DNA of 64,000 nt from a virus: positions 1 to 64,000 of IMG/VR virus record IMGVR_UViG_3300010160_000036, one strand, 5' to 3'. The translations under genes were made by a program, and so were the position numbers. The first letter of the stretch is position 1. The number at the start of each line of letters is the position of its first letter. Positions 3,007-48,900 of this stretch are shown piece by piece. Below the pieces are notes generated by a model, which saw only the letters and a list, made by a program, of their open reading frames with translations, was not told the origin of the DNA and did not search any database.

Positions 3007-4626
3007 TCACTCTTGATACGATGTAACTTGTATTTTGTAAGTGGTCATGTTGCTTGTTGTTGGAAAAACATACAATGAAGCTGTTGCCGGAATTGATATA
3101 TTACCCGGCTCATATGTTATTGCAAAATTGCCAACTGGTCCATTTACTTGAATAGTGTTATATTCACTATAATGTACTGTATTTGCATAGTACACTGCTT
3201 CTAATTTACATATCTGCCTGTTGCCTGCACTAGCATCTGTTGAAATAATAGTAACATCTAATCCAGCAGTATCTGATGTTGGAAAGGTCATTAATAATGT
3301 TTCTGATGTTGTTACTGATGTAGCAAAGTATACGCTTGTTCTAGAGAACTTATATGCTCCTGAACCTATTGTTAATGAGTTTGCTACTAAATCTCCAGTA
3401 ACAGTAACTGTGTTTGTACTAGTGTTATAAGTGAAGTTTGCATCTGCTGCAAAATTTCCATTGTTATTATATTGTATTTGTGTGTTACTACCACCAATGC
3501 CACTAGATCCAGATGCCCATGACAAGTTACCCGATCCATCAGTAGACAACACATAACCATTTGATCCACCGGTTATTTTTACATTGCCTACATTTCCTAA
3601 GGTACTGATACCATTTACTGTCAATACAGTTAATGTGCCGGTACTTGTAATGTTCGGTTGATAGTTGGCAGTAACATAAGTTGCGGTAACAGATGCCGGA
3701 GCATTCTCCCAAGTTAAATTACCACTACCATTTGTAGTTAAAACTTGTCCGGAGTTTCCACCATAAACATGCACATTACTTACATTACCTAATATAACAT
3801 TTCCTGATACTGTTAAGTTAACTAATGTACCCAATGATCTGATATTTGGTTGAGCATTTGTTAATACTGTTCCAGTATATAACGACTCAAATACTTGACC
3901 AACAACATTAGAACCATTAATATTAGATAATGATGTACCTGACCCAATAAATCTAGCTGCCGTAACATTACCTGATACATTCAATGATGTTAATGTACCA
4001 ACGCTAGTGATATTTGCTTGGCCAGCAATTGTTACATTACCTGCATAATTTGCATAATTAGCTGTGTTAGAAGATGCAGATATAACACCTGATAACATGT
4101 ATCCGTTACCAGCATAGAAGTTAGCAGTAACATAATTACCTAAATTAGCGTTCCCGGCTGATATATTTCCAGTAGCTGTTATTTTTGTTACATTTAAGTT
4201 ACCACCTGATATGTTACCTGAGGCAACAACATTAGTAGCTGATACATTACCTGAGGCAACAACATTAGTTGATACTATGTTACCAGATATACTTAATTGA
4301 TTAGTTACATTGTTATAAGTGAAACCGGGATCGCCACCAAAGTTACCATCATTATTAAACTGTACTTCACTGTTGCTACCTCCAGGTACTCCGTTGCCAC
4401 CTCCACCATTGCCAGCCGGTGCCCATGTTAATCCACCTTCACCATTGGTTTGAAGATAGTATCCGTCTACCCCGCCCAATATAATAACATTGTTTATAGA
4501 GCCTAAATTTGATATCCCGGATACTTGCAGTCCAGGAAGAGTAGCTATACCGTTTGCATTGATAACTGGTGTTGGCGGAATACCTACTGAGTATCCACCT
4601 ACCGAGTTAAAAGCTTCAAATGCCAT
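3007..4626 (-). CDS. Fibre-like virion protein, 539 aa
   Basis: Repeated G(Q/Y)VL(T/S)T(N/D)GSGNL(T/S)W and GGSN(S/T)xVQFNNxGNF motifs, QPNITSxGTL repeats; paralogous N-terminus to 1..2966. Confidence 0.75.
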   Translation of the reverse strand: MAFEAFNSVGGYSVGIPPTPVINANGIATLPGLQVSGISNLGSINNVIILGGVDGYYLQTNGEGGLTWAPAGNGGGGNGVPGGSNSEVQFNNDGNFGGDPGFTYNNVTNQLSISGNIVSTNVVASGNVSATNVVASGNISGGNLNVTKITATGNISAGNANLGNYVTANFYAGNGYMLSGVISASSNTANYANYAGNVTIAGQANITSVGTLTSLNVSGNVTAARFIGSGTSLSNINGSNVVGQVFESLYTGTVLTNAQPNIRSLGTLVNLTVSGNVILGNVSNVHVYGGNSGQVLTTNGSGNLTWENAPASVTATYVTANYQPNITSTGTLTVLTVNGISTLGNVGNVKITGGSNGYVLSTDGSGNLSWASGSSGIGGSNTQIQYNNNGNFAADANFTYNTSTNTVTVTGDLVANSLTIGSGAYKFSRTSVYFATSVTTSETLLMTFPTSDTAGLDVTIISTDASAGNRQICKLEAVYYANTVHYSEYNTIQVNGPVGNFAITYEPGNISIPATASLYVFPTTSNMTTYKIQVTSYQE

Positions 4627-15629: not shown

Positions 15630-16451
15630 ATGACAAACCCGCTAAAACAATACTTTCGCAGACCCGCAATATACATGAAACTTCCCAGTGAAGGTAAATT
15701 TTATTCAGAGGGGTCAATTGACCTACCGGATAACAAAGAACTGCCTATCTATCCCATGACAGCGATTGACGAGATTACTAGTAAAACACCGGATATGCTG
15801 TTTAATGGCTCGGCAATAGTTGAAATTATCAGAAGCTGTGTTCCTAACATTAAAAATCCATGGGAAATCCCACAGATTGATTTGGACCCTATACTAGTAG
15901 CCATCAGAGCAGCAACCAACGGTAATAGTTTGGATATCAACAGCACATGTCCATCATGTGAGGAAGAAGGAAAATACGGCATTAACCTTACGGGATTACT
16001 GACTTCACTTAAATCAGGTAACTATGATGAAGAAATTACTATCAATGAATTGAAATTCAAGTTTAAACCATTGTCATATAAACAAATTAATCAAGTTAAT
16101 AGTTCACAATTTGAAATACAAGCGGTGATGAATGGTCTAGAAAATATAGATGATGATGTAATTAGACAAGCTAAGACAACAGAATCTATGACAAAATTAA
16201 CTGAATTGAGTATGAGTTTTGTAGCTGAATCAATAGAGCATGTTACAAGCCCGTCAGCCTTTGTAGTTGAAAAAGAATATATTTTGGATTTCTTAAAAAA
16301 CTGTGATAAACAGACATTTGATGCACTAAGAAAATCTACCATTGATTTACGAGAATCAAGCGAAATTAAACCATTACGTATTAAATGCGTAAATTGCGCT
16401 AATGAATATGACCAAACATTAGTGTTAAATGCAACTGATTTTTTCGATTAA
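15630..16451 (+). CDS. gp26: Baseplate hub assembly chaperone (T4 gp26-like)
   Basis: NPLKQYFRRPAIYMKLPSEG, PMTAIDEI, DLDPILVAIRAAT, two CxxC pairs, C-terminal DFF; start ATG 15630 with GGAG RBS. Confidence 0.8.
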   Translation: MTNPLKQYFRRPAIYMKLPSEGKFYSEGSIDLPDNKELPIYPMTAIDEITSKTPDMLFNGSAIVEIIRSCVPNIKNPWEIPQIDLDPILVAIRAATNGNSLDINSTCPSCEEEGKYGINLTGLLTSLKSGNYDEEITINELKFKFKPLSYKQINQVNSSQFEIQAVMNGLENIDDDVIRQAKTTESMTKLTELSMSFVAESIEHVTSPSAFVVEKEYILDFLKNCDKQTFDALRKSTIDLRESSEIKPLRIKCVNCANEYDQTLVLNATDFFD

Positions 16452-16484
16452 GGCTTCTCACCCTAGACTCCAAGGGTGTGAGCC
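16439..16484 (+). promoter_or_regulatory. Putative programmed -1 ribosomal frameshift signal
   Basis: In-frame slippery heptamer T TTT TTC (16439-16445), 6-nt spacer, hairpin 16452-16484; the -1 frame is open into ORF 16478..16675. Confidence 0.7.
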
Positions 16485-16675
16485 AATTAATTGAAAACAT
16501 GGAGCAAGAGTCTAATGACATAAAGAAATCTGCATTGAAGCTATCATGGTTTATGCGTGGAGGAGCAACCTATGAGGATATACTTAATATGTCAGATATG
16601 GAAAGAACAGCTATGTCTGAATTGATTGAAGAAAATTTGGATACAACTAAAAAGTCGGGATTACCATTCTTCTAA
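16478..16675 (+). CDS. gp51-like baseplate assembly protein; probably the frameshifted C-terminal extension of 15630..16451
   Basis: LSWFMRGGATYEDILNMSDMER motif; no well-spaced RBS; in the -1 frame relative to the upstream gene. Confidence 0.65.
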   Translation: MSQLIENMEQESNDIKKSALKLSWFMRGGATYEDILNMSDMERTAMSELIEENLDTTKKSGLPFF

Positions 16676-16719
16676 CCATAGTAATTCATTTATCTAATTT
16701 ACGGGTTTCTTTACTTCTC

Positions 16720-17180
16720 ACTAAAAGATGAACTTCGTTCATCTAAGAACTTCACTTCGTTCGTTCTTATATTTGACGGTCTATAATTCTTTTTTACAGT
16801 AAGTAGTTAAAGAGTATATTGCCGATTAGAAGCCATGGTAGTGCTAATCAGCACTACCAATGGTTAAGGACATTTGCCATGACCGTCATCCGTTGTCATT
16901 TTTCTCCCGTTTAATTGCCTATTTGAGACACTAAACGCTACCGGTTGCTCTGTAAAGTTTATGGAGCTGTAGTCAGGTCTATCAATTTATTTCAATTGAC
17001 GCCTACGCAACGCACATTCTATGATTCAAAAATGAAGTCATCATAGACTTGTTGAGGGTTCGCTTTGCCGATTGCCCTCTCGGTATTCCATATGTATCAC
17101 TACATATGCTTACTCTAGATCCGTCAGCACAGCACAATCTGTACAAACTCAAAGAGGTCTCCCAACGGAGACAACAAATT
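16720..17180 (-). ncRNA. Candidate large structured non-coding RNA (~460 nt), family not recognised
   Basis: ~515-nt gap without a credible ORF; at least eight stems plus long-range helices; wobble pairs are G-U on the minus strand; ends in a hairpin with a short U tract. Confidence 0.6.
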
Positions 17181-17191
17181 TTTATTTTAAA

Positions 17192-17761
17192 TTATTGTAA
17201 TGGGGTGCTATCAAACGTGTTGATAAATTGTATGTTTGACTTGGTGTCTGTTGATGTTGAATATGTTTTTAATATATCGGTGTTGTGATTGAAGAAACTG
17301 TCAAACTCGAAAATTGTCCAGTCCCCTTGTTTTTTTGATGTGTAGTATATGAAGTTATCACTAACCCATGTTAGTTTGCTTTGACCAGCAACATAGCGAC
17401 CCTTACGATTAAACTTCATAAACAAAAGATTAATATCGCCTTCGTCAGCTACATCCATGAGTTGGTCTATCCAAGCATCTATTACTTTACAATCACCGGT
17501 AAGTAATAGATGAAAAGGAAAGTCAGCGTAGCTTTTCGCTTCAGCATTGAAATGCTTCCAATCATCAGGTGGAATGATATCACCTTTAAATGATTTAACT
17601 TGATTCTCACTTAGATATTCTTTTCGGTGATTGTTTGTTCCACCGATAAATGCACCGCTGTGTGCAGCCCTAACAAAAGATTCATTATAAGTTTTAGATA
17701 AAAAGTTAGCAACCTCACGTTCAAATGCGTTACCTTTATTTTTACTTTTTGATCCACTCAT
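17192..17761 (-). CDS. Holliday junction resolvase-like PD-(D/E)XK nuclease
   Basis: SKNKGNAFEREVA...SGAFIGG...GDIIPP...NAEAKSY pattern of Hjc-type resolvases. Confidence 0.8.
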   Translation of the reverse strand: MSGSKSKNKGNAFEREVANFLSKTYNESFVRAAHSGAFIGGTNNHRKEYLSENQVKSFKGDIIPPDDWKHFNAEAKSYADFPFHLLLTGDCKVIDAWIDQLMDVADEGDINLLFMKFNRKGRYVAGQSKLTWVSDNFIYYTSKKQGDWTIFEFDSFFNHNTDILKTYSTSTDTKSNIQFINTFDSTPLQ

Positions 17762-18371
17762 TCAATGCCTCTTTGTATAAATTAATATCTTTGTGTATTC
17801 TACTTATCAGTTCCTGATCGCAACCAAACTTTTTTGATAATGTAACATACAATCCATGTGTATATGAAACTTGTTCTAGTTCTTCTATAATTTTTACTTT
17901 TAAGTCAACATTGGTTCTACGTATACTAGCTAAGGTGTATTTACGCTTAGATTCATCTGATCGTTTCTTCCCGACAAGTTGAGCCCTTCTGGTTTCTATA
18001 TGGGTTTCTGTCTGGATAACACCCCTTCGTTGCGTAGACCATAGATGTTTTGTTTTTTCTGTATGACTATATCCGGTATTTCCTTGCTCACCGCCGTCAG
18101 CATAATTAGTAAGTGTTCCTGTTCCTTTAATGATTCTTCCATATTGCTCTATCAATATTTTTTCACGCAATAAAGCTGAATCTTCGGTTTCATGCTCACT
18201 ATCTACCGCAATCACGGGGGACATTCCTGCAAGTTTAATCTCTTTGATAAATTTATTTTTTAGTGGGTTGCCACCCTTCATAGTCACTTTTAACCTTCGC
18301 TTGGCACCCTTACCTACGTAGAATGGTGTATTGTTTCTCGGGTCATGTAAAATATAAACGTACCACATCAT
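17742..18371 (-). CDS. Free-standing GIY-YIG-type (LEM-3-like) homing endonuclease with NUMOD3-like repeats
   Basis: WYVYILHDPRNNTPFYVGKG...EKILIEQYG...LTN core; HTEKTK / RSDESKRK repeats; AAGGA RBS supports a start at 18371 or 18368; ATAAATA at 18398-18404. Confidence 0.75.
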   Translation of the reverse strand: MMWYVYILHDPRNNTPFYVGKGAKRRLKVTMKGGNPLKNKFIKEIKLAGMSPVIAVDSEHETEDSALLREKILIEQYGRIIKGTGTLTNYADGGEQGNTGYSHTEKTKHLWSTQRRGVIQTETHIETRRAQLVGKKRSDESKRKYTLASIRRTNVDLKVKIIEELEQVSYTHGLYVTLSKKFGCDQELISRIHKDINLYKEALNEWIKK

Positions 18372-18429
18372 AATATCCTTTGTAAAATATACACAATTAT
18401 TTATCATAATTTGTATATTTTAGACAGAT

Positions 18430-33938: not shown

Positions 33939-36900
33939 ATGGCAACAAGAATTAGAACACTAAACTTTTTACCTGAAGTATTTCAGACCCCTACTAACGC
34001 ACAATTTTTAGGAGCAACACTAGATCAAATTACGGATCAACCAAATACGATGCGTATTGAAGGTTATGTTGGTAGTAAGTTTGGATATGGTATTAATGCT
34101 AAAGACAAATATGTAATTGAACCTACAAAAACACGCACTGACTATCAATTAGATCCTGCTGTTGTATTTACAAAAACAAACACAGCAACAGCAGTCGATT
34201 TCATTAGTTATCCGGGCATAGTAGATGCTGTAAAATTAAACGGTGGCATCATTGATAATAACGACAGACTGTTTAACAGTCAATTTTATTCATGGGATCC
34301 GTTTGTTGATTTGGATAAAGTAATCAACTTTAATCAATATTACTGGTTGCCAACCGGTGCACCGGCAGTAACAGTTGCTACTGACATTGTTTATAATGTC
34401 AGTGATTATGTTGTAACAGATTTGCCAAATGGATACAACATTTCAAGTGACGTTAATCCAAGTGGCTCAACTAATCCATCATTGACTTTTATTCGTGGCG
34501 GTACATATACATTTACTGTAGATCAGAATACTGCATTTTGGTTACAAGGTAAACCGGGTGTAACCGGCTATGATCCAGCTCAACCTAATTTACAAACACG
34601 TAATATACTTGGTGTTGAAAACAACGGGGCCTCTAGAGGTGTAGTAACATTTAATGTACCTTATAAAAACGCACAGGATGAATATAATTTCCCAGGTAAC
34701 AACTTAGTTGATGTAGTATCAACTACGCCATTTGATGAAATCAATGGTCAGCTGTTAAGTTATGTTAAAAATATCGACGGTGTGACAGCATTAGGAGGTA
34801 GAACTGTACTGTTTTATAATACTGGCGTAGTTAATGAAACTGGATTTGTTGGCCCGTTTTATGATACAACACTGTATGATGAAAACGGTGGCAACGCCCC
34901 GTTCGTTTATCCGGGCACATCGATTGATAATAACAATTATAATGGTGGTTATTATACTGATCCTTCAGCTACATTTTATCTAATAACATATGTTGGTGAT
35001 CCTGACAACCCTACACTAAAATTAGTACCATATGCCCCTATCCCAACTGAAGAAAAGATAACAGCAGTTTACGGCACACAATGGAAAGCTAGAAATTTTT
35101 ATCGTAATATCGAAGGCGTAATTAACTTGATCCCGTATCTAAGCAGTTTGCTAGATACAATATATTATCAAGACGGTACTAGTCCAGACAAGGTTGGTGT
35201 TATTAAATTAATTAATAGCAACTCTGCAAATCAAATTAATGTCAATGATATTTTAGGTAAAAAGAATTACACTGCACCAAATGGTGTCGTGTTTACTAAC
35301 GGATTAAAAGTATCATTTGCAGGTAGTATCTATCCAACAACTTACAAGACAGGTGAATACTATGTTCAAGGTGTGGGTACTGCAATTGAATTATTAGACA
35401 TTGCTACACTAATTGCCCCAGAACCATTCACTGCAGGAACATATACACCATACGACACCTTACCGTATGACATTGGCAACTATGATAGTACATTATACGT
35501 TCCTGTATATCAAGATTATTTAACAATTGCAAGAAATAGTATTGACAGAAATGCATGGTCACGAAGCAATCGTTGGTTTCACATTGATGTTATTAATGCA
35601 ACTGCAGGTTATTTAAATGATCCTACAATCGTTACTACATATGCAACACAAAATAATAAAGCAAAACGCCCGGTCATAGAATTTTATCCTAACTTACAAT
35701 TATTTAATAACAACATTGTTGGCAAACAACCTATTGATTTCTTTGACACTAGAACAACAGATGCATTTACTCAAGTTGCCGGACAACTTGCTTACTACCC
35801 GGACGTAGAAGTATACACTGCATCAACCGCATCTATCGCATCAGCATCAAGCGCAACATCTACTACAATTACTGTATTGGCGTCAGACGTGGGTCCTGTA
35901 ACTAGTATTGGTGCCAGCATAGGTACATTTCAAGTAGGTCAATATATTACCGACAATGCTGGTAAACTACCACGTAATAGTCAAATCTCAGCTATTTCTG
36001 GTACAACAACATTGACATTGACGGTTACGTGGCCTTATGCATCATCATTTACATCAGCCACTAATGTGTCATTAATTGCAAACGGTTTACCAAATGATGA
36101 CTATGCATTGTATGACGGTGCAAAGATTGTATTCTCTGTAGATACAAATGTTGATGTTCGTAATAAAATTTATATTGTTCGTTTTTCAAGTATTGCCGGC
36201 TCAATCCCAGTTATTACATTGACTGAAGTTGAAGATGGTTTAGTATTACCAAACGAAGGTACATTTACATTCAAGGGCTATTACAATCAAGGTATGGATT
36301 TTTACTTTGATGGTTTAACATGGTTTGAAGCACAGCAAAAGACAACAATTAACCAAGCACCATTGTTTGATGTCTTTGACAATGATGGTGTAAGTTTTGG
36401 TAACAATAATGTTTATGTAGGTAGTTCATTCAAAGGTAACAAACTATTCAGTTATGGTATTGGTAGTGGAATCAATGATTTGATATTAGGCTTTCCGTTG
36501 CGCTATAGTTCCGTAAACAATGTAGGCGACATTAGCTTTGATGTACTAATAAACTCTGCGACATTTAATTATGTTAAGGGCATTGCACCAATAACACAAA
36601 AAGTAAACACTGGATATGTTCACAACTATAGTGACCTATCGACATTTAGTAGAGCATTAGGTTGGCAAACAGCAGTTGCTGAAAGTCGGCAGTACCAAGT
36701 GTTTAATTTTGATTATGTAGCATCTAACCCAGTAACAACATATACATGCGACATTGCGGCTGCAACAAACACTGCATGGCCTAACATTCAATTGTATGTA
36801 AATAATGATTTGCAAGCATCATCAACTTACACATATGAAATTACAGAAGATTCTACTGTAATTACATTTACACCACCTAATCCTTTAGTTGATACTGTAA

Positions 36901-39900
36901 TTGAAATTACTATACTAAGTGACCAAGTAAGTCCAACAGCTTACTATGAAATCCCTATCAACTTACAAAACAACCCATTCAATACTGATATCACAACAGC
37001 AAACGTTGGTGATATACGTGGTCAGTATCAAAGTATCTTTTACAACAATCCTGACACTACTGGCGTAGTATTTGGTTCAAACAACTATCGTGACTTGGGC
37101 AATCTTGTGCCATGGGGTAATAAGATTATTCAGAATAGTGCAAGTCTTGCACTTCCTGGCACATTCCTTCGCAAACAAAATCACAATTTAGTTGACTCGT
37201 TGCAGTATAATAGTCAACAGTATATTATATTTAAAAACTTGTTAGTAAATACAATTGATAGTACAGACTATACTTATTATCAGTTACCGGCAGTAATGCT
37301 AGATAACGCATTAGATCAAATTACCTCAGGTAAAATTGAATCTGGTCCATTCTTTTGGTCTGACATGCTACCTAACATGTCAGCATATGCTACCAACACA
37401 TATACTTTTGCTAACTCATTAGATGTAAGTATCTATCCATTGACTAGAATTTATGATTTTACTAAATCAAACTATTATGGTGTTCTTGTTTATCTAACAA
37501 GAACTGTTGATAACTTTACAACAACTACTCAGTTACTAATCAATATTGACTATACTGTCAGCACCGATACTCCTAGCTTAACAATTAGTACTGATTTGTT
37601 ACCAGGTGATATCGTAACAATTAAAGAATATAATCAAACATATGGTAGCTATGTTCCAAATACTCCTACTAAGTTAGGATTGTATCCAGCATTTGTACCT
37701 GAAGTTATCTTAGATAGTAACTACACACAACCTACATATTTTATTCGTGGACATGATGGATCATATAATCAATTGTACGGTGATTATATTGACGGGAATT
37801 TAGTAGACTTCAGAGATAAAGTATTGTTAGAATTTGAAACAAGAATCTATAACAATTTAAAACTAAGTGACATCATTCCAATTCGTGACTATGATGTTAT
37901 TCCTGGTTTCTTTAGAAATACTGGTTACTCATATGACGAAGTACTAAGCATATACTCGCAATACTTTTTAAATTGGATAGGTCAGAATCGTGTAGAATAT
38001 AAACCACAAGTAGGTTATAGTTCAATTGACCAGTTTACTTATAATTACAGTCAATCAGGAAATAAGATTGATGGTAGTCAAATATTACAAGGTTATTGGA
38101 GAGGTATATATCAATATTTCTATGACACCTCTGAACCTAATACAACACCATGGGAAATGCTTGGCTTCACTGCAATGCCATCATGGTGGACAGGACGTTA
38201 TGGTGCTGCCCCATATACAAGTGACAACTTAGTATTATGGAAAGATTTAGCACAGGGTATTAACTGGAACAACGGTGATCCCTACGTATTGAGTCAGTTT
38301 ATCAGACCGCAGTTGTTAGAAGTAATTCCTGTTGACAGTGCTGGTAATTTATTATCACCATTTGATGCTATTGTTGGTAACTATGTAGAACGTTCATTCA
38401 AACATGATTGGAAAGTTGGAGATGTAGCTGCAACTGAATTATCATATCGCAGAAGCAGTACATGGCCATTTGACTTGATGAAACTATTGTCATTGACAAA
38501 GCCAGCAGAATTTTACAACTTGGGTGTTGATGTTGACAATTACAAATACAACACAGAATTCAATCAATTCTTAGTTAACAACCGCAGCCACTTAGTAATT
38601 AGCGATGTACAAATTTATGGTAATGGCATAGCTAAAACTAGTTACATCAACTGGATTGTTGATTATGAAAAACAATTGGGCGTGGATGCAACAACCAACA
38701 TCACTAATTTGCTAGCTAATTTGGATGTTCGTTTAGCATACAGACTTGCTGGATTCAGTGACAAGACCCTATTGAATTTCTATGTTGAAAAAGGCACACC
38801 AAACAGTACAAATGCTTCATTATTGATTCCTAATGAAAGCTATCAAGTATTGTTATATGACAATGTGCCATTCGACAAAATTATATACAGTGGAGTTATT
38901 GTACAAAACGTAGGCACTGGATGGAAAGTATTTGGTAACTCACAGAACAACGCATATTTTAATATAAGTGTTCCAAAAATAAACGGAAATTATAATAAAG
39001 TATCAGTAGAAGGATTATCTGTACAAATTGCAAATGACTACTTTGACAATAAAAGTCAGTTAATCCCATATGGTACCGAATTCAATTCAATACATGATGT
39101 TGCACAATTTATAGGAAGCTATAATAATTATTTGCTCAACCAAGGCGTATTGTTTGACCAGATCGAATCTGGCTTAGCAGTAATTTGGAGTCAGATGGTT
39201 GCTGAATATTTATATTGGGTTCAATCAGGATGGGAAAAAGGAAGTTTGATTAACTTAAATCCAGCAGCCAATATTATGACTATTAACAAAGATAGTTACA
39301 TTGTTCAACCATTAACACTACAAAAACAAAACTTTGTATTGAATCAAAACTTATATCCAATTAAATCTACTGATTTAGCTGTGGTTCGTGAAGGTACTTT
39401 ATTCACAGCTACACCATTAAATCAAGGTGATACCGTTGCATATGGTCAGTTTAACATTAGTAATTTTGAACATGGTATTGTTTTCAACAACGTAACACTA
39501 TTTAATGATATCATCTACAATCTTATAACCGGTTTACGTCAAGCTCGTATCCTAACAAAGGGTGTTAAAACTGCCGATTGGAATGGTACAATCGATGCAC
39601 AGGGTTTTATATTAAACCAAGACAATATCTTAGAATGGGACAGTATCACAAAGTATACCAAAGGTTCTATTGTATTATACAAAAATAGATATTGGACTGC
39701 GTTACAAGTGATTAATGCTAGTGCGATTTTTGATACTAAGTTATGGAAAGAAACTAACTACAACGAAATTCAAAAGGGCTTACTACCTAACGGTTCAACA
39801 CGTTCGTATGAATCTACGTTGTTCTATAATACAAACATTAGTAACCTAGACAGAGATAGTGATATACTAAGCTGGTCATTAATTGGTTATCGTCCCCGTG

Positions 39901-42900
39901 ATTACCTAGCACTTGCCGACCTAACAGATATTACCCAAGTCAATGTTTATAAGAACATGATTAAACAAATGGGTACAAGAATCGCCGCTAATAACTTTAA
40001 GGGCGTAACTTTACTACAAGGTGGTATTGACTATGATATCAATGATAATTGGGCTATCAAGACAGGTGAGTTTGGTGGTGTGTTGGATAATAACTTTGTT
40101 GATTTTAGATTAAATCAAACTCAATTGACCGGCAACCCAAGCACAGTAGCATTGACTACAGGAGATTATACTGACGGAGTAGAACAAGAAGTTCCGTTGT
40201 ATTCTGTATTTAATTATAGTAGACCATTGACTAACCCTAATGTTCTACCTACATTACCAGTTGACACTCCCAACAGATTATATCCTGCAGCAGGTTATGT
40301 AAACTTTAACGATATTTCAGTTTACGGTTATTACTATAATGATTTAAACACTGCTCAGACTCCGTTGGAAAAATTATACGTAGGTGAATATGTTTGGATT
40401 GCTGATTATAACGGAACTTGGCAAGTATACACCCCTATCAGCAATGGTCAATTAATTGAAGTGGTTAATAACTTGAATGGAACAGTGACCTTGACTTTTG
40501 CTGAACCACACAACTTAACTAAGTATCAAACTATTGCTATTATTAATTTTAATGCAGGTGTCAATGGGTATAGAATCGTACAATCAATTATAGATAATAA
40601 CAGAGTTACAATTGCACTTAACTTGTTAGCATCAGTTACAAGACTTACCGGTACTGGCATAGTGATGAGATTTCAATCTCAACGTGTAAATCAACCTAGT
40701 GACATCAATTCATTACCGTTACTAAACACAGAATTTGTTAAGAATAAAGTATGGGTAGATACAAATACTGACGGTGATTGGGCTGTCTATCGCAAGAGTT
40801 TAAATTATGTTTATGATTTAGAATTATTAAGAACAGGTGCATTGAAATTTGGTAGTGCAGTAGCAACTACAAGTGACTTAGGCTATTTAATTGGTGACAG
40901 TGACTTGGGTGTAGCATACAGATATGTATATGACCCTGTATTTAAAGTATTCGTAATGCGCCAAAGTATAACTGGATCAGAAAGTTTTGGTTCTACTATT
41001 TCTTATAGTGGTAACAAATTTGCCATCAGTCAACCAACCGGTGCATTATTAGCTAACAGATTAGTTAAAGTATATGATTTGATTGTGTCTATCACACAAA
41101 ACATATTACAATTATCTCAAACAATTCAAGCACCAACAGGTGCAACAAACTGGGGTTCTGCTACAGCATTCTCCGGTGATGGTAACTGGTTGTATATCAG
41201 TGCATATGAACAAAACAGTGTATATGTATATCGCAAGTCACAAGTAACTGGATTGTATGAGTATTCAACTATTATCAATGTTTTAGGATTGGTAGCAGGG
41301 GATAACTTCTCTTACTCACTGTCAACTAATTATTACGGGGACACTGTAATTATTGGTGCACCTGATGTAGATACCACAGTAGACAATACAGGTTCAACTT
41401 ATATTTTTGAACGATTAGTTCAGAATTTTGAATCACAATACAACAGTCAGCCACTAGTTCCTCAAACATTCAAATTAGTATATACTCCCGGCACAACTAT
41501 TAGAACCGCATCGGCCATTGCAAGTAACGCAGTAACATTGAATAGTGTTGCAGGATTAACAGCAGGTGTAAATGGTACTGCAATCGTGTTTACTGGCACA
41601 GTATTTGGTAGCATTGCACTAAATCAAGTTTATTATGTTAAGTCTATTGTAGGTTCTACTGTTACGTTGTCTTTAACTCGTAACGGTACTACATTAACCT
41701 TGACTAATAGTTCAGGCACAATGTCTGCGGTAGTACAGACTCAACCATTGTTTGTAAGTGTTAACGGCACACTAATTACAGATAATAATTATGCTGTCAC
41801 GGGTACTACGTTAAATGTCTATCAAAGTTTGATCGCAGGTGATATCATAACATCTAGCAGTTCACAATTTGTATTGATTGAAACATTGGTATCTCCTGAT
41901 AATCTAACAATAGGTGAACAGTATGGTTACAGTTTAGATACTAACACATACGGTACTGAAATATTAGTTGGATCACCGTTTCAACTTAATTCACAAAATC
42001 AGGAAGGTGCTGTCTATCGATACACTGATGGCGGCGGCAAATACGGTATCATAACTGGTTTGCTTGACTGCCAAGTTTCAACACCTACAACTATATTAAT
42101 AAACGGTTATGTAGTTGATATACCATTAGGTAATGCAACTATAGTTGCTAATTCAATAGCTTCCGCTAATATCACCAATGTAACTGCTACTACACAAAAC
42201 GGTAAGTTGGTAATTTCTACTATTAGCAATGAATTAGCATATGTCAATGATAAATTAAACATTGTAACATTAAGCGCACATGACTTCTATCAATTGGGTA
42301 TTAGTAAGTATCAATTGACACAAACTATTAATGATCCACACAGTCAAGGTAGAACACAATTTGGTACTACTATTAAATTTAATGAAAGCAGCTCATTTGT
42401 AGTAAGCTCACCTGTATCAACACGGTATGAAGAAACAACCTTTGATGCTTCTGATGATGCCAACTATAACAATGACACATTGTTTGATAACAATACAACT
42501 CAATTTTTAGACACCTATACTAATGCTGGCGCAGTATACATGTTTGACTATGTAAGCAACTACGATGAAAATTTAAACAATGTGGGTCAATTTGTATATG
42601 CTCAAAATGTTAATGCGTTTGATTTAGACTACGGCGCACAACCATACTATGGCACAGCATTAGATTTTAATAACAATCAAGTTGTTGTTGGCACACCTAA
42701 CTTTAGACCAAATATTAATAACGGTCAAGTAATAATTTATCAAAACGCCACTGGTGTACAAGACTGGAGTGTATATCGTAATTCAACTCCTATCGTTGAT
42801 GTAAACGCAATTCAAAATGCCCAGTTATATAGTGCATCTACTAATAACACATTGATCAATCTAGATTACATTGATCCATTACAGGGTAAATTATTAGGTG

Positions 42901-45900
42901 CTGTTGCTGAAAATATTGATATCACGAGCAACCGTGATCCTGCTGCATACAATGGTCCAAATTCTACTAACACTAGTTCTATTGTTTGGGGAGCCAAACA
43001 TGTTGGTAAATTGTGGTTTGATACAAGCACTACTAAATTTGTAAACTATCATCAAAGTAATGATGTGGTATATAATAGCAAATGGTGGGGTCAAGTATTC
43101 CCTGGAAGCAGTCCTGTAGTTTGTAGTTGGATATCTAGTAACGTTTTACCTACAAATTATGCAGGCCCCGGTACTGTCAAAGACGTAAACGAATATACAA
43201 TCGAATACACATTGAACACTACTGGAGCTATTGTTCCGGTATACTTCTATTGGGTTCGTAACACAAACATTGTGTTTACACAATTAGGCAAAACACTGTC
43301 AGATACAATATGTGAATCATATATTGCAAATCCACTGACAACTGGTATTTCTTACTTTGCACCACTATTACCAAATGCGTTTGGTTTGTATAACACTATG
43401 GACTATGTAAACAATACAGACACTGTAATGCATGTTGGTTTTGCTACTGGAACAAATGATGATGTTTCACACAGTGCATACTCATTGATACGTGAGAACA
43501 CGGATGATTTCTTGCCTGGTTTGCCAGGAACCCCGGGTGTAACATACCCCAAATCATTGTACAATAGAATGCTAGAAAGCATGAGTGGTGTAGATGAATC
43601 AGGAGCAGTTGTACCTGATCCAAATCTACCAAAACCAGTACAAAGTGGTATACTAGTACGTCCTCGCCAAAGCTTCTTCTACGATAGATTTGGTGCATTA
43701 AAGAACTATTTGACAACTGCTAATGAAATACTAGCAAAGTATCCATATAACGAAACAAGTTATAGTACATTCTTAAATACATCAGGCGCTGTCAATCCAT
43801 CTACTGTTGGTAATCCAAATTGGTCTGGTGCTGAAGAACTATTCTACAACACACAAGATTATTGGACACCAATTAATTGGTGGGCAATTGGATACAATGA
43901 CAACACACGTCCAGCAATGATGGTTCAATCATATTATGATTTGGCTACGTTGAATGCACAAAATGGATTAATCGTTACTGTTGCTAAGAACGGTCAAGGT
44001 CTACAAGAGACATATAAATATGACATTATAATCAATGATTGGGTTCGTATTGGATTACAAAATGGTACAATACAGTTTAAGAGTTCATTGTGGGACTATG
44101 CTACTGCTCGTTTAGGATTTGGTGATAATTTCTTTGACACCACTCCATTCGACACCTACCCAAGTGAGGAGACTCGTTATATTGTTCGTGCATTGAACGA
44201 AGAAATGCCTACAGAATTAGGATTCTTTAAGAATGAGGGCTTGATATTGTTGTTCAACTACATTATTAGTGAGACAATCGAAAGTCAAAATTACTTGCCG
44301 TGGTTGAACAAAACATCATTTGTTGATGTGTCACACACTATTCGTGAGTTACTTCCATTAAAAATATTCCAATCAGACAATCAAGATTTCTTGAGTGGTT
44401 ATATCAATGAAGTTAAGCCATATCATGTAGTCATTAAAGACTTCTTGTTTAGATATACTGGTCTTGATTTATGGCGCGGTAATGTCACCGACTTTGATTT
44501 GCCCGCAACATATAATACAAACTTACAAAAGTATATTACTCCTGAATTGGTATATACTAATCCAAGTCAAGATAATCAATATTTGCCCACAGATCCTATC
44601 TGGCAAACACCGCCCTATGTTGAATGGTTTAACAATCATGGGTTGAGCATCACCGGAGTAAACAATTACCCAATTACTACACTAGCATCATATCTAACAT
44701 TAAATTCTATTGACATGGTAGTAGATAACGTCTATGGTTTCCCAGTAGACAGTGTTATTCAAATAGGTGAAGAACAAATTGCTTATTCAGGTGTTGACAG
44801 AGCATATGGATTATTAACTGGATTAACTCGCGGTGTTAATGGGACTCCTGTGACAAATCATATTCCAGGAGAGCAAATCATTACAGATTTGCCTGCCGTA
44901 TTGTTACTAAACGGTGGTCGTGGTTATACCGAACCTCCTAAGGTAACAGCATACATAGATACAACCGTGTTCCCGGCGCCAACACGCGCCGCTATATTAC
45001 AACCCGTAATGAACTTGGATACGATCTTACGCATTGATGTAGTTGATCCAGGTGAAGGATATGTTGAATTACCACAAATCTTAATTGAACCAAGTGCTAT
45101 AATTACGTTCCCAAGTTCATATGTAGATTTGAGTAATGACACAGTTATCATTCAAAGTCAGTTGCTACGAACTGGAGATTTAATTCGTTACAGTGTGGGT
45201 GCAAATACAACTCCAATAGGTGGCCTAAAACAAGGAGAATATTATTATATTTCAGTATTGGAAACTATACCTAATTTTGTTATTTCTTTCTATACAACTT
45301 ATGTAGGTGCATTAAAGGATCAGGACAGAGTTAATTTATTAAATGGTGGATCAGGATCAAACAACTATATTGCTATTAGTGCAAGAGCAAGTTGTGTTTC
45401 TACTGCAATACCAATTCGTGAAAATCAAATTACACTAAGATTTGATAGAACATCATACACCTCACAAGTACAAGATTGGGCTCCTAATAATTTTTACGGC
45501 TCGTTCTATGCAGGTGTATTTAGAAATACAACTCAAGTTGCTAGTTCCGGATTGACATTGGAATCTAGCGCACCTCCTATTGATTCTATACTAGCTAGTG
45601 CTCAAGGTGCTCCGTTCTACTTACAGGATGTGTCTAATAATCATGTAGTTGATTGGTCATCACGTACTAGAATTGTAACTAACACCTCTAATACTGGTTA
45701 TATTACTATTGCCCCTAGTGAAGGCGGTACTCCTTTAGAGGGCTATGTTGGACCAACAACTGGCTTCTATATTGGAATGCCAATAAAATTCACTGGTGCA
45801 AAATTTGGTGGATTAGTTGTTGGGACTGTATATTATATTAGTGCTATCAACGGATTAACTCAATTTAAATTGGTTGATGGTGTTGGCAACCCCGTAGTAT

Positions 45901-48900
45901 TAACAACAGAAACTGCCCCAGTGGCCGGCCTAACTGCAATGATTGGTGAAGTATCAAACACTGCTGTAGTAACAATTGACTATCCTGGTATTTTACCAGT
46001 AACTACAACACAATCAGCAACTAATTATGTAATATCTCCATTGTTGTCAGGTAGCCAAGGTGGTACAGCAGGATTCTATCAAGGTATCTCATTGTTCTTT
46101 ACAACTAATTCTACTGGAAATTATCAAACATTTGGTAATATCGTAGAAAACGAAACATATTATGTCACTACTGTGATTAATTCTACGACATTCACTATGT
46201 CAACTAGCAACAATCCTATTAATTTAACTGCTACACAAGTATATGGTACCGGTGATTATGTGAAACTAAGTACAGTCTCATCATTAAGCATCAATGATCC
46301 AATCATCTTTACTGCCATGTACATAGTTGGATCAAGTGTTTCTAACTTTGGTGGCATCATTGCTGGACAAGTTTACTATGTTGCATCTATTGATTATAGC
46401 ACTAACAGAATTACTATATCTAATACTGTTAACGGAGGCAACGTAAATCTATCAGATGTAGCAGCCGCAACCAATACATACTGTACAATGACTGACCAAA
46501 AGGATACAGTTAAATTAACAACAGCCACTGGTAATATAACAATGAATGTTGGATTACCAATCAGTCCCGGCCAAATTACAGGTCAGAAGTTTACATTCTA
46601 TAAAACATCAGGTAACTACATAAACGGCGGTGCCGGATATACTGGAACAGTAAGTAATCTAGTTACAAGAATAACAGTAGCTACAACAGCAACATCAAAC
46701 TATCTATATTTAAATCAGTTGTATGGTGGTACAACACATATGTATGTAAACATGCCATTCAAAGTTACTGCTAATATTGGTAACTTGATTGCAGGAACTA
46801 CATATTATGTTAAATCATTAGGTACAATTAGTGTTGATATTTCAAGTAGTTCTTCATCTACTAATTTGTATACCGCAGCAAATACAACCGGCTTCTATGT
46901 AGGTATGCCAATAATATTCACCGGGGGTATATTTGGTAATGTCAAACCATTGGTCACTTATTATATTAAATCATTACCTGATTCTACTCACTTTTCTATT
47001 AGTGAGTATTTAGGTGGACCTACATTTATACTGTCAGGTAACAACGGATTAATGACTGTTTCTGCTAACGATCCATATATTACAGTAAGTAGTAGTTTAG
47101 GTGGAAGTACATTTGCTCTTGCTAATAGTACAACAGTTACTACCCTAACTCAATATGTAACTTCAACTCCAACTTTCTATGTAAGTTACAAGCTAGGTGG
47201 TTATAGTGTGACCACTCATACTGCTGGTTCTGGATTTGCATATAACAACAATATAACGCTTCTTGGAACAAACTTTGGTGGTACAACACCATTAAATGAT
47301 GTAATAATTAATGTCTCTGGAATCGGCACAACCGGAGAAATAACTTCTACTATTATTTCTGGTACACCCGCAGAATTAGCAAAACAATACTACTTGAAGG
47401 TTATAAGTGACACCCAATTAGAAGTGTATGAAAATGCATTGATGACTATCCCAGTAGATGGAACTATTCTTGCCATTGAATATGCAGCAGGTGATTATGT
47501 GTTCTTACCTGAACCATTTTACTTCAATCAAAGTATTGTAAAATACAACAACAAAGTATGGCAATGTATTGTCAGTAATAGTGACGCAGAATTCATTCTA
47601 GGTAAATGGGAGCTAATGGATAGTGGAAGTCGTAGACTAAATGCATTGGATCGTATCGTTGGTTACTATCAACCAACAGTCAACATGCCTGGTTTAGATT
47701 TAACTCAGCTAGTTTCCGGAATTATATATCCAAATAATACTTATTTGGATAATGCTTTCCCTCCGGCAGACGAGTATCCATTAGATACATTATTATCAGA
47801 TCAACCATTCTATCCTACTAGCATAAACAACATGGCTATTACTTGGGACGGAGTAAAATATGTAGGTGGTGCAAATAGCCCTACATATTCATCTGCTATT
47901 ATAAGTGAAAACTCAATTAATTGGGCAATTGACAAGATTGCTGATTCACCGGTTAGTATTACTAGTATTAAATATGTAAGTGGTTTATATGGTAGTGGAT
48001 TGTATGTAATAACAACTGCGAATTCGGCCACCCCAATTTATATCAGCCAAGATGGTATACAATATGCAACATCCGGCGGAGCATACATACCGTATGATTC
48101 AACAGCATACAGTATTACACCATATGATTTCAGCTCATTAAAAGTAGAATCAACATTACTAAACAGTGTTGATTATTTTAACAACATATGGGTAGCAGTT
48201 GGAGAAAATATCGTAGCAAGTACAGATTCATATTTCTGGGGCGAAGTATACAAATTGCCTTATCCAGGTGTACTGCGTTCAGTACATTATGTAAATAATC
48301 CAGGCTTTACTGGATGGCTAGCAGTAGGTAACTGGACAATTGGTAATACAACTAGTTCTGTTATATTATCAAGTGATGATGGATTTGTTTGGACACAAAT
48401 CAATGAAGGCATTACTACAATCATTACTAGCGCAACATTAAATGTTGTTTATAGTAGCAACGATTTAATTATTTTTGCAGGAGCAAATGGTAAACTATTC
48501 TCTAATGCATCACCTGCATCATATACACAACAAACAACTAATGTAGTAACTGGGTTGAACGATGTGATATATGCGGATGGTGTATATGTTGTAGTAGGTG
48601 ACAACGGAACTATCATTACAAGCACAGACACAATCACATGGACAACAAGAGTATCAACTACTACAAATAATTTAAATGGAATTACATATGATGTAGTCAA
48701 CAATAGATTTGTAGTAGTAGGGGATAATAATACAATATTGACAAGTATTAATGCAGGTGTTACATGGATACTATCAAGTGTATACACAGTTGATCCTACT
48801 GTTTATACTGTACAAGGTGATGCATTTACATCTGGTTATGGACCGGAAGAATTAGTTCCCGGTGTTGTATCTGACAATTTGACTATGATTGTTAACACAC

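What the first reader, a model, noticed from the sequence alone, without database searches (positions are those of the whole stretch)
16720..17180. Unrecognised ~460-nt ornate structured RNA downstream of the Holliday junction resolvase
Seen: the largest non-coding gap in a gene-dense window, packed with stems: 17157-17172 (GTCTCC/GGAGAC), 17089-17108 (8 bp perfect), 17054-17079, 17018-17047, ~16975-17005, 16908-16937, 16836-16859 (10 bp perfect), 16726-16744. Long-range helices: 17143-17156 with 16948-16962, a nested GCUGUG/UACAGC pair, and 16774-16781 with 16881-16888. UCCGUUG of the 5' hairpin is complementary to CAACGGA at 16889-16895 (alternative fold or pseudoknot), and AAUCGGCAA is repeated (17065-17073, 16819-16827). 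Imperfect pairs are G-U on the minus strand, which argues for an RNA co-oriented with the gp47-gp46-endonuclease-resolvase operon. I find no tmRNA, RNase P, SRP, or group I/II intron hallmarks. Inference: a novel large phage ncRNA, possibly a nuclease partner or scaffold, a ribozyme, a replication primer, or a packaging RNA.
Basis: partly seen in the sequence, partly recalled or inferred. Interest (0 to 1): 0.82.

Follow-up and report, generated by a model that had tools for sequence, protein, structure and literature searches.

The report
New knotted twin-box jumbo-phage RNA
The gene-free gap behind a small DNA-cutting enzyme gene of this uncultured giant T4-like phage encodes a real, intricately folded, doubly knotted RNA of about 360 bases (450 with its hairpin tail) that well over a hundred related phages keep, that no RNA catalogue recognises, and whose job is unknown, although two short boxes that always stay identical to each other suggest that it grips two copies of one partner.

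Summary
Window 16726-17174 (minus strand) is a genuine structured non-coding RNA, not chance hairpins.

- **Conservation:** more than 140 loci in IMG/VR carry it, and 83 of them are less than 95% identical to each other. None has a conserved ORF.
- **Structure:** 78 base pairs are 97% canonical, and 58 of them show compensatory changes. Slid controls give 33-43% pairing.
- **Strand:** G-U outnumbers A-C 211:33, which fixes the strand.
- **Fold:** a four-way junction, two pseudoknots, and an invariant hairpin (GGUAGUGC/GCACUACC), followed by two tail hairpins.
- **Context:** an Hjc-like PD-(D/E)XK nuclease gene always ends 11-50 nt upstream.
- **Known families:** Rfam 15 gives nothing, even at E<=10. 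The GenBank phage collection gives no match, and scans of about 185,000 cellular genomes confirmed no copy.
the local stems are right, but the three long-range pairings are not kept in relatives. The real long-range pairings are different.
- **Twin boxes:** two 4-5 nt boxes (GGCAA here) flank the invariant hairpin, one in a hairpin loop and one single-stranded. They change between lineages but stay identical to each other, and no complementary partner exists in cis.

I infer a trans-acting RNA that presents two identical sites to one partner. That partner could be a nucleic acid such as a tRNA anticodon loop, or a dimeric protein. Function is unproven.

Earlier agents of this scan found the same family, including the twin boxes, on other genomes.

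The parts
16815..17174 (-). Core of the RNA, about 360 nt. It runs from the 5' hairpin to the second twin box. The conserved lead-in AAAAAUUUGUUG starts at about 17180.
   Evidence: nhmmer finds full-length matches in more than 140 loci. An 83-sequence alignment gives 78 pairs at 97% canonical, 58 of them with compensatory changes.
17157..17172 (-). H1, the 5' hairpin (GUCUCC/GGAGAC).
   Evidence: Relatives show CUCC/GGAG, CCUG/CAGG, CUGA/UCAG and CUGU/ACAG.
17113..17156 (-). H2 (CUCU 17156-17153 with AGAG 17116-17113). It encloses the variable hairpin H3 and the conserved GACGGA.
   Evidence: CUCU/AGAG occurs in 2 sequences and CUCC/GGAG in 80. Pairing is 99%.
17089..17108 (-). H4 hairpin.
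   Evidence: All 7 pairs show changes on both sides.
16939..17085 (-). Four-way junction domain. H5 (UACCG 17085-17081 with CGGUA 16943-16939) closes H6 (17079-17054), H7 (17052-17014) and H8 (17011-17006 with 16949-16944; inner hairpin 17005-16974).
   Evidence: Pairing is 96-100% in each helix. H5, H6, H7/H7b and H8 have 3, 4, 11 and 4 compensatory pairs. Position 16956 varies in parallel with the 17085:16939 pair, which may be a base triple; this is not significant on the tree.
16908..16937 (-). H9 hairpin.
   Evidence: All 11 pairs are compensatory in alignment A2. None of 500 shuffles reaches the observed covariation score.
17030..17035 (-). Pseudoknot 1, 5' strand (loop of H7). It pairs with 16901-16896.
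   Evidence: Six pairs are 95% canonical, 5 with compensatory changes (105 cells, against 1-20 when slid).
16896..16907 (-). 3' strands of both pseudoknots: GGAG at 16907-16904 (pairs with CUCC at 16966-16963) and AAAUGA at 16901-16896.
   Evidence: PK2 has 4 pairs, 92% canonical, all with compensatory changes. Its register is ambiguous by one position, since a slide of -1 also gives 91%.
16862..16891 (-). Three-part hairpin carrying twin box 1 in its apical loop (GGCAA at 16878-16874).
   Evidence: Single-sequence folds recover the same hairpin in most members. Support in the MAFFT alignment is weaker, at 74% paired.
16833..16863 (-). H10. The 8-bp core GGUAGUGC/GCACUACC (16858-16851 with 16844-16837) is invariant in this family.
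   Evidence: It is invariant in the 20 loci found through the nuclease protein alone. Members found with another pattern show only G-U wobbles on this strand or stem extensions.
16815..16832 (-). Single-stranded 3' segment CUUCUAAUCGGCAAUAUA carrying twin box 2 (GGCAA at 16823-16819).
   Evidence: The box stays identical to box 1 across lineage variants. Positions 16882 and 16825 switch together between U/U and G/G in 7 of 8 independent pairs, p = 0.016.
16726..16768 (-). Tail of two tandem hairpins (H11 16768-16745, H12 16744-16726) with CGAAG-type loops. They follow an A/U-rich variable linker (16814-16769) and probably act as a two-way terminator or 3' end protection.
   Evidence: H12 has 8 of 8 compensatory pairs. 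The consensus scan calls no canonical terminator here.
17192..17761 (-). Upstream neighbour: a 189-aa PD-(D/E)XK nuclease (Pfam PDDEXK_15), Hjc/RecU-like. It is not part of the RNA but always sits directly 5' of it.
   Evidence: Pfam E = 4e-23 and PHROG 244. Model pLDDT is 76, and the best PDB folds are archaeal Hjc (E ~0.01). In all 77 loci with enough flank, an ORF of 144-228 aa (all but one 178-228 aa) ends 11-50 nt before CCUCC.

Best explanation
This is the gene of a stand-alone, trans-acting structured RNA of uncultured jumbo T4-like phages.

**Shown**
- It is an RNA on the minus strand.
- It is about 360 nt long, plus a tail of about 90 nt with two hairpins.
- It folds into a four-way junction locked by two pseudoknots.
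- It always lies directly behind an Hjc-like nuclease gene, so it is transcribed either with that gene or from a promoter inside it.
- It carries two exposed 4-5 nt boxes that flank a rigid, invariant hairpin. These boxes change between lineages but remain identical to each other.

**Inferred**
- The knotted core is a scaffold that presents the two boxes, one in a hairpin loop and one single-stranded, about 55 nt apart.
- The boxes are presented to two copies, or two equivalent sites, of one lineage-specific partner supplied in trans.
- The boxes change freely, including to unrelated words. Where they differ at position 1 or 3 the difference is usually C versus U. They have no complement in cis. 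For these reasons the partner is more likely a nucleic acid read by base pairing than a protein.
- The RNA would then hold, sequester or bridge that partner during infection.
For: **Real RNA**
- 22 loci found through the nuclease protein keep the gap at 70-86% nucleotide identity with no shared ORF.
- A pattern scan gave at least 120 further loci, all full-length by nhmmer.
- 78 pairs are 97.3% canonical, 58 of them with changes on both sides, against 33-43% when partners are slid.
- H9 has 11 of 11 compensatory pairs, and 0 of 500 shuffles reach the observed score.
- G-U:A-C is 211:33.
- Both pseudoknots were found by covariation alone.

**Twin boxes**
- The two copies share GGCAA, GGUAA, AGUAA, GAUAA, AGCAA, GGCAU, GUUGAA, AAGCAG, CUGCAUGU or GCAAGUA, depending on lineage.
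- In 13 of 21 variant sequences the variant 4-mer is also in the sequence's own box-1 window. The figure is 8.4% for windows of other box classes and 1 of 14 elsewhere in the same RNA.
- Flanking positions 16882 and 16825 co-switch in 7 of 8 independent pairs.
- No complement is found in cis or within 2.5 kb upstream or 1.5 kb downstream.

**Other support**
- The syntenic gaps of more distant phages (subfamilies B and C) show the same design with AGAUGAA or ACAUGAA in both copies.
- Relatives' copies occur in contigs of four freshwater metatranscriptome studies (weak).
- It is phage-only: 0 hits to the hairpin pattern in about 185,000 cellular genomes.
Against: - No partner has been identified.
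- No transcript ends are known. The RNA-library contigs may contain DNA and also cover the neighbouring genes.
- The box identity is imperfect. In one clade box 1 has lost a G (UGCA against GGCA), and position 5 of the box often differs between the copies.
- Homology of subfamilies B and C to this family could not be shown by a covariance model. It rests on synteny and shared layout.
- An invariant 8-bp hairpin could equally be a protein-binding site, which would favour a protein partner.
- Many conserved unpaired junction nucleotides would also fit a ribozyme or a ligand binder.
Confidence: 0.5

Rival explanations
1. The RNA is a partner of the neighbouring Hjc-like nuclease. The enzyme is presumed to be a homodimer, like Hjc and RecU, and would bind the two identical boxes, or the invariant hairpin. 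The RNA would then regulate, sequester or direct the enzyme.
For: - Adjacency is strict in all 77 loci with enough flank.
- The fold resembles Hjc and RecU, which are dimeric resolvases (dimer state is from established knowledge of those families).
- Two identical sites fit a two-fold symmetric protein.
- The A-family nucleases have a C-terminal tail with a DT(K/T)S motif. The tail is absent from PA5oct, whose nuclease gene has no gap behind it.
Against: - No nuclease residue tracks the U/G switch next to the boxes.
- A protein would have to change specificity each time the boxes change to unrelated words such as GUUGAA or AAGCAG.
- The B and C nucleases lack the tail but still have a structured gap.
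- Adjacency may only mean co-transcription.
Confidence: 0.15
2. The RNA is a ribozyme or ligand-sensing RNA. The pseudoknotted core forms an active site or binding pocket, and the boxes are substrate or recognition sites.
For: - It has a double pseudoknot and a four-way junction.
- It has many invariant unpaired nucleotides: GGAAUACCGAG, CACUACAG, ACUUUACAG and AUGCGUUGC. This is typical of catalytic and ligand-binding RNAs (general knowledge).
Against: - It matches no ribozyme or riboswitch model in Rfam.
- No gene lies downstream on the same strand that it could regulate, because the next genes are convergent.
- No cleavage or ligation junction appears in the read laying (contigs only).
Confidence: 0.12
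3. It is a cis-acting 3' untranslated element of the recombination operon. It would be a stabiliser and two-way terminator that insulates the convergent early and late operons, with no trans function.
For: - It starts within about 20 nt of the nuclease stop codon.
- It ends in tandem hairpins that sit between convergent genes.
Against: - Insulation or 3' protection does not need 360 nt of pseudoknotted, sequence-invariant core or co-evolving twin boxes.
- No canonical terminator is called.
Confidence: 0.08
4. It is a DNA-level element, such as a replication origin or a cruciform site for the resolvase, rather than an RNA.
For: - Both strands fold better than shuffles.
- The invariant hairpin is a perfect inverted repeat next to a junction-resolvase gene.
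Against: - Wobble pairs are strongly strand-biased (211 G-U against 33 A-C), including the G-U variants of the invariant hairpin itself.
- Pseudoknots are maintained by compensatory change.
Confidence: 0.03

Closest known systems
GOLLD (RF01998) and ROOL (RF03087) RNAs
   Same: They are large, ornate, pseudoknotted non-coding RNAs of unknown function. They are often carried by phages or prophages, were found by comparative genomics of metagenomes, and are not cis-regulatory (PMC2864571; cryo-EM in PMC12286853).
   Different: - There is no sequence or structure match.
- This RNA is about half their size.
- It sits at one fixed locus behind a nuclease gene rather than near tRNA genes.
- Oligomer formation is untested.
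- Twin boxes are not, to my knowledge, described for them.
T-box leader RNAs (tRNA-sensing riboswitches)
   Same: A structured RNA exposes a codon-like triplet followed by a conserved purine to a tRNA anticodon. The boxes here have the form NNN-A-R, and GGCAA is the exact complement of UUGCC, positions 32-36 of the phage-encoded tRNA-Gly(GCC) loop. This resemblance is in logic only.
   Different: - No T-box model matches.
- There is no downstream gene and no antiterminator or T-box sequence.
- There are two boxes instead of one.
- Box position 1 differs between the copies in one clade.
- tRNA binding is untested.
Dual-site sponge RNAs for dimeric proteins (CsrB/RsmZ with CsrA)
   Same: One short motif appears both in a hairpin loop and in a single-stranded stretch tens of nucleotides away, which suits a two-fold symmetric binder (my knowledge of the CsrA literature).
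   Different: - There are only two sites.
- The motif is not GGA and changes between lineages.
- The sites are embedded in a large knotted core.
Polynucleobacter-1 motif (RF01718)
   Same: It is an orphan motif from freshwater metagenomes (PMC2864571). Earlier notes of this scan call it a catalogued fragment of a sister branch of this family.
   Different: This was not reproduced here. RF01718 gives no hit in the window, in 24 related loci at E<=10, or in five whole jumbo-phage genomes that carry this RNA at E<=1.

Membership tests
Any Rfam 15 family (including GOLLD, ROOL, HEARO, OLE, raiA, RNase P, tmRNA, group I/II introns, T-box, 6S, SRP) | A covariance-model score at or near the family's gathering threshold. 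| tested here: not met
   There are 0 hits at gathering score in the 64-kb window. Only three noise hits at E 2.8-6 appear in 16500-17400. There are 0 relevant hits at E<=10 in 16 related loci.
Polynucleobacter-1 (RF01718) | A match to the 141-position model. | tested here: not met
   There is no match at E<=1 in five whole genomes that carry the RNA, and none in the loci scanned.
tmRNA | A tRNA-like domain, plus a tag reading frame that starts at a resume codon. | tested here: not met
   ARAGORN finds no tmRNA. The short frame from AUG-GCA in box 1 to the UAG in the hairpin is in frame in only 36 of 66 sequences.
Bacterial RNase P RNA | A conserved P4 core (CR-I/CR-V) detected by the RNase P models, with the 5' and 3' ends paired (P1). 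| tested here: not met
   No RNase P model hits at E<=10. The supported helices do not pair the two ends. The resemblance of GGAAUACCG/ACAGAGCAACCGGUA to CR-I/CR-V is from memory only.
Group I intron | The element interrupts a gene, has a P3-P7 core recognised by the intron models, and has an internal guide that pairs with exon ends. | tested here: not met
   It lies between convergent complete genes. No model hits. No cis complement to the boxes exists.
T-box riboswitch | A specifier codon in Stem I, the T-box antiterminator sequence, and a regulated gene downstream. | tested here: not met
   No model hits. No gene lies downstream on the same strand. The only shared feature is codon-like boxes followed by A.
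Translational bypass site (T4 gene 60 type) | Matched take-off and landing codons about 50 nt apart around a hairpin, inside one continuous coding frame. | tested here: not met
   The matched boxes are 53-60 nt apart around a hairpin. However, no ORF enters or leaves the region in any relative.
omega-RNA / HEARO-type guide RNAs of IscB/TnpB | An adjacent IscB or TnpB gene, plus a scaffold matching HEARO or related models. | tested here: not met
   The neighbours are an Hjc-like PD-(D/E)XK nuclease and baseplate genes. No model hits.
Large structured phage ncRNA of unknown function (descriptive class, not a homology family) | More than 300 nt, non-coding, with multi-helix covariation including pseudoknots, encoded by a phage, and not a leader of a gene. 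| tested here: met
   Whole relatives are 303-524 kb phage records with 86-100% estimated completeness.

The most novel reading that the evidence does not exclude
The RNA is a tRNA-binding scaffold. Each twin box would be a codon-like triplet plus an invariant A (NNN-A-R) that pairs with positions 36-33 (and 32) of the anticodon loop of one particular tRNA, so the RNA would hold two molecules of the same tRNA.

- Most members would bind tRNA-Gly(GCC), whose phage-encoded loop is UUGCCAA.
- Variant lineages would bind Ser, Asp, Leu or Met tRNAs.

In phages that carry 28-53 tRNA genes of their own, such an RNA could sense, sequester, protect or hand over a chosen tRNA. That would be a ribosome-free, T-box-like reader of tRNA identity that is not a riboswitch.
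Probability: 0.12. Interest if true: 0.93.

Novelty: categorically new. Interest (0 to 1): 0.82.

Why it matters
Large RNAs with complex, conserved tertiary folds are rare, and nearly all those understood so far do fundamental jobs: ribosome, RNase P, tmRNA, introns and riboswitches. This one is widespread in giant freshwater and marine phages. It sits at a fixed place in the recombination module, and its two pseudoknots are supported unusually well by covariation.

It also has a built-in handle for experiments. The twin boxes must stay identical, which predicts a partner that can be fished out and tested by compensatory mutation. Finding that partner would show what a giant phage needs a 360-nt knotted RNA for. 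It would also add a new RNA class to the few, such as GOLLD and ROOL, whose roles in phage biology remain open.

Tried and rejected
- **GenBank phages:** blastn of the region, and of the B and C versions, against 50,697 phage records gave no match.
- **Cultured relatives:** the closest cultured phages with the nuclease (PA5oct at 55% identity, SCTP-2) have no gap behind the gene and no model hit.
- **Subfamilies B and C:** a covariance model of the 3' domain did not detect them even with filters off, so their homology stays unproven.
- **Metagenome scan:** the B/C tail pattern returned mostly chance matches. Only 3 of 120 were real.
- **Cellular genomes, central core pattern:** 120 chance matches, none real.
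- **GACACCAAGUC upstream of the RNA:** it looked like a promoter or operator. It is in frame in the nuclease gene (DT[K/T]S) and unique in the window, so it is coding.
- **H8 strand UUGCC as an alternative partner of the boxes:** it does not co-vary with them.
- **Possible third pseudoknot GGAA/UUC:** no clean covariation.
- **Base triple 17085:16939 with 16956:** suggestive counts, but too few independent events.
- **Mini-ORF or tmRNA-like tag starting in box 1:** the frame is not conserved.
- **Nuclease residue co-evolving with the box-flanking U/G switch:** nothing beyond phylogeny.
- **Matching phage tRNA sets to box variants:** uninformative, because these phages carry nearly every tRNA.
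- **T4 late promoter TATAAATA:** depleted in the window (4 found against 10.5 expected), so the promoter of the RNA was not identified.
- **Metatranscriptome contigs:** they cover relatives' copies and also the neighbouring genes. They show presence in RNA libraries only, not ends, strand or level.
- **One script used a wrong anchor and gave nothing usable.**

Full report
**Setting.** The window is part of a 76-kb IMG/VR record, estimated 22% complete, of a T4-like phage. Around the finding lie, on the minus strand:
- a late sigma factor gene,
- SbcD- and SbcC-like gp47/gp46 genes,
- a homing-endonuclease-like ORF,
- a 189-aa PD-(D/E)XK nuclease (Pfam PDDEXK_15, PHROG 'RusA-like resolvase').

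On the plus strand, converging on them, lie a T4_baseplate-family hub gene and a 65-aa ORF. The nuclease model (pLDDT 76) most resembles archaeal Hjc and RecU junction resolvases, but weakly. The gap 16676-17191 has no ORF that is kept in relatives.

- The gap folds much better than dinucleotide shuffles on both strands (z = -4.8 and -5.6).
- More telling, 22 loci fetched through the nuclease protein keep the roughly 500 nt at 70-86% nucleotide identity. That is as conserved as the protein itself.
- A scan for the invariant hairpin gave at least 120 more loci. All of them match the whole element by nhmmer.
- After removing near-duplicates, 83 sequences remain, with a mean identity of 65%.

**Structure.** RNAalifold on the first 20 sequences already gave 45 pairs with compensatory change. 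An APC-corrected covariation scan on the 83 sequences recovered the local stems and, without any prior, two pseudoknots. In RNA sense (window minus strand) the layout is:
- H1: 17172-17157.
- H2: 17156-17153 with 17116-17113, around a variable hairpin.
- H4: 17108-17089.
- A four-way junction closed by H5 (17085-17081 with 16943-16939), containing H6, H7 and H8.
- H9: 16937-16908.
- PK1: the loop of H7 (17035-17030) with 16901-16896.
- PK2: 16966-16963 with 16907-16904.
- A three-part hairpin at 16891-16862.
- The invariant hairpin H10: 16863-16833.
- A single-stranded segment, an A/U-rich linker, and two tail hairpins: 16768-16726.

Over 78 pairs, 97.3% of cells are canonical, and 58 pairs have changes on both sides (1064 cells). 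Sliding the partners by 1-3 columns gives 33-43% pairing and 106-161 such cells. The session's pair-counting tool on a 50-sequence alignment of the 3' domain gave the same verdict: H9 has 11 of 11 compensatory pairs, and 0 of 500 shuffles reach the observed score. G-U pairs outnumber A-C 211 to 33, so the folded molecule is an RNA of the minus strand. The rare variants of H10 are also G-U wobbles on that strand.

All eight local stems are correct. The three long-range proposals are not kept in relatives. The true long-range contacts are H5, H8 and the two pseudoknots.

**Is it known?**
- Rfam 15 gives no hit at gathering score in the window. It gives only noise at E<=10 in the region, and nothing relevant in 16 related loci.
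- ARAGORN finds nothing.
- No GenBank phage has it.
- The hairpin pattern is absent from one genome each of about 185,000 prokaryote species.
- The library of papers holds a catalogue of about 10,000 candidate viral RNAs from IMG/VR (PMC10690425). It names no such element in its text, and its tables are not held, so prior listing as an unnamed candidate cannot be excluded.
- Earlier agents of this scan reached the same family on other genomes and called it new. Some link it to Rfam's Polynucleobacter-1 motif as a fragment of a sister branch. I could not reproduce that link: RF01718 finds nothing in 24 loci or in five whole genomes that carry the RNA.

**Context.**
- In all 77 loci with enough upstream sequence, an ORF of 144-228 aa (all but one 178-228 aa) ends 11-50 nt before the conserved CCUCC. 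In some loci it ends inside H1.
- Whole relatives are jumbo phages of 303-524 kb. One has direct terminal repeats.
- Two of them hold 28 and 53 tRNA genes.
- Phages whose nuclease is only 45-53% identical still have a gap of about 430-650 nt at the same place. The gap has a different sequence but the same layout: a hairpin followed by UGGCUC, twin boxes, and tail hairpins with CGAAG loops. A covariance model of the 3' domain does not reach them, so I treat them as probable, unproven relatives.
- PA5oct-like phages, whose nuclease is 55% identical to the window's over its first 140 residues and lacks its C-terminal tail, have no gap.

**The twin boxes.** Two short segments flank H10.
- Box 1 lies in the apical loop of the hairpin at 16891-16862 (GGCAA, 16878-16874).
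- Box 2 lies in the single strand 3' of H10 (GGCAA, 16823-16819).
- The boxes are 53-60 nt apart in every member.
- Most members have GGCAA in both. Lineage variants carry the same variant in both: GGUAA, AGUAA, GAUAA, AGCAA, GGCAU, GUUGAA, AAGCAG, CUGCAUGU or GCAAGUA. Subfamilies B and C have AGAUGAA or ACAUGAA twice.
- By an automatic call, 13 of 21 variant sequences have the box-2 variant in their own box-1 window. The figure is 8.4% for windows of other classes and 1 of 14 elsewhere in the same RNA. Most of the misses are one-letter differences or mis-registered calls.
- The positions just 5' of the boxes (16882 and 16825) switch together between U/U and G/G in 7 of 8 phylogenetically independent pairs, and never in opposite ways (p = 0.016).
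- No complementary segment exists in the RNA or within 2.5 kb upstream or 1.5 kb downstream. The similar-looking H8 strand does not co-vary.
- The common form is NNN-A-R, and the fourth letter is always A. Where the copies differ at position 1 or 3, the difference is C versus U in two lineages (L132, L037) and U versus G in one clade.

**What this suggests.** Identity, rather than complementarity, between two exposed segments is what one expects if both are read by the same outside partner. A nucleic-acid partner explains the free drift of the boxes best.

One concrete candidate is a tRNA anticodon loop. GGCAA is the exact complement of positions 32-36 (UUGCC) of the tRNA-Gly(GCC) that these phages themselves encode, and the invariant A would face the universal U33. 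This remains a hypothesis for three reasons:
- The phages carry nearly all tRNAs, so no discriminating test was possible.
- One clade breaks the triplet at its first letter.
- An alternative reading frame (GCA, GUA, AUA, UGA) fits about as well.

A two-fold symmetric protein, such as the neighbouring resolvase-like nuclease, is the main alternative. I found no nuclease residue that tracks the RNA change.

I rejected a tmRNA-like tag or mini-ORF and a gene-60-type bypass (no ORF).

**Expression.** Contigs from four freshwater metatranscriptome studies contain relatives' copies. In one run depth is highest over the RNA. However, contigs also span the neighbouring genes and may include DNA. This shows presence in RNA libraries, no more.

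**Verdict.** This is a real, new class of large pseudoknotted phage RNA of unknown function, with an unusual and testable feature. The structural claims are strong. The mechanism (a scaffold presenting two identical sites to one trans partner) is inferred at about even odds. The tRNA reading is a long shot worth testing.

Noticed in passing
window 17237-17249 (-), and the same place in about 65 of 77 related loci: GACAC(C/A)A(A/C)GUC lies near the 3' end of the nuclease gene. It is in frame and encodes a conserved DT(K/T)S motif in a C-terminal tail. The nucleases of subfamilies B and C and of PA5oct lack this tail. The motif is duplicated in a few loci (L046, L093, L105).
   Followed up: partly
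window 17742-18407 (-): A 221-aa homing-endonuclease-like ORF (PHROG 314/5356) sits between the gp46-like gene and the nuclease gene. In several relatives (L008, L011, L012) the 690-aa gp46-like ORF directly precedes the nuclease. The ORF therefore looks like a mobile insertion.
   Followed up: no
L022 3510-3545, L024 3517-3585, L025 3495-3525: In the distant subfamilies the stretch between the nuclease stop codon and the structured gap holds 2-5 direct copies of (U)AGGCA, spaced about 10-12 nt apart. They may be a promoter or a protein-binding array.
   Followed up: no
window 16726-16768 (-); L024 about 4000-4040; L025 about 4020-4060: Both tail hairpins carry CGAAG-type loops (GAACGAAGU twice here; GGCGAAGC and UACGAAGUA in the distant subfamilies). 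This resembles the very stable GCGAAGC mini-hairpin. The loops are conserved even where the rest of the RNA differs.
   Followed up: partly
relatives' whole records G005 (524 kb) and G002 (191 kb), loci L333-L362: Jumbo relatives carry 53 and 28 tRNA genes. In the 524-kb record the tRNAs form two mirrored clusters (about 115-126 kb on the minus strand and 417-426 kb on the plus strand) with the same gene order. This suggests an inverted duplication or an assembly artefact.
   Followed up: no
whole window: The T4 late-promoter word TATAAATA is depleted (4 found, 10.5 expected from shuffles). This phage therefore uses a different late promoter consensus.
   Followed up: no
window 16439-16675 (+): The hub gene ends GAUUUUUUCGAUUAA, and a 65-aa ORF without an obvious ribosome-binding site follows. 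Another first-stage note proposes a -1 frameshift here. Relatives keep a 62-75-aa ORF at this place.
   Followed up: no
window 33939-52376 (+): A single 6145-aa ORF takes up 29% of the window.
   Followed up: no
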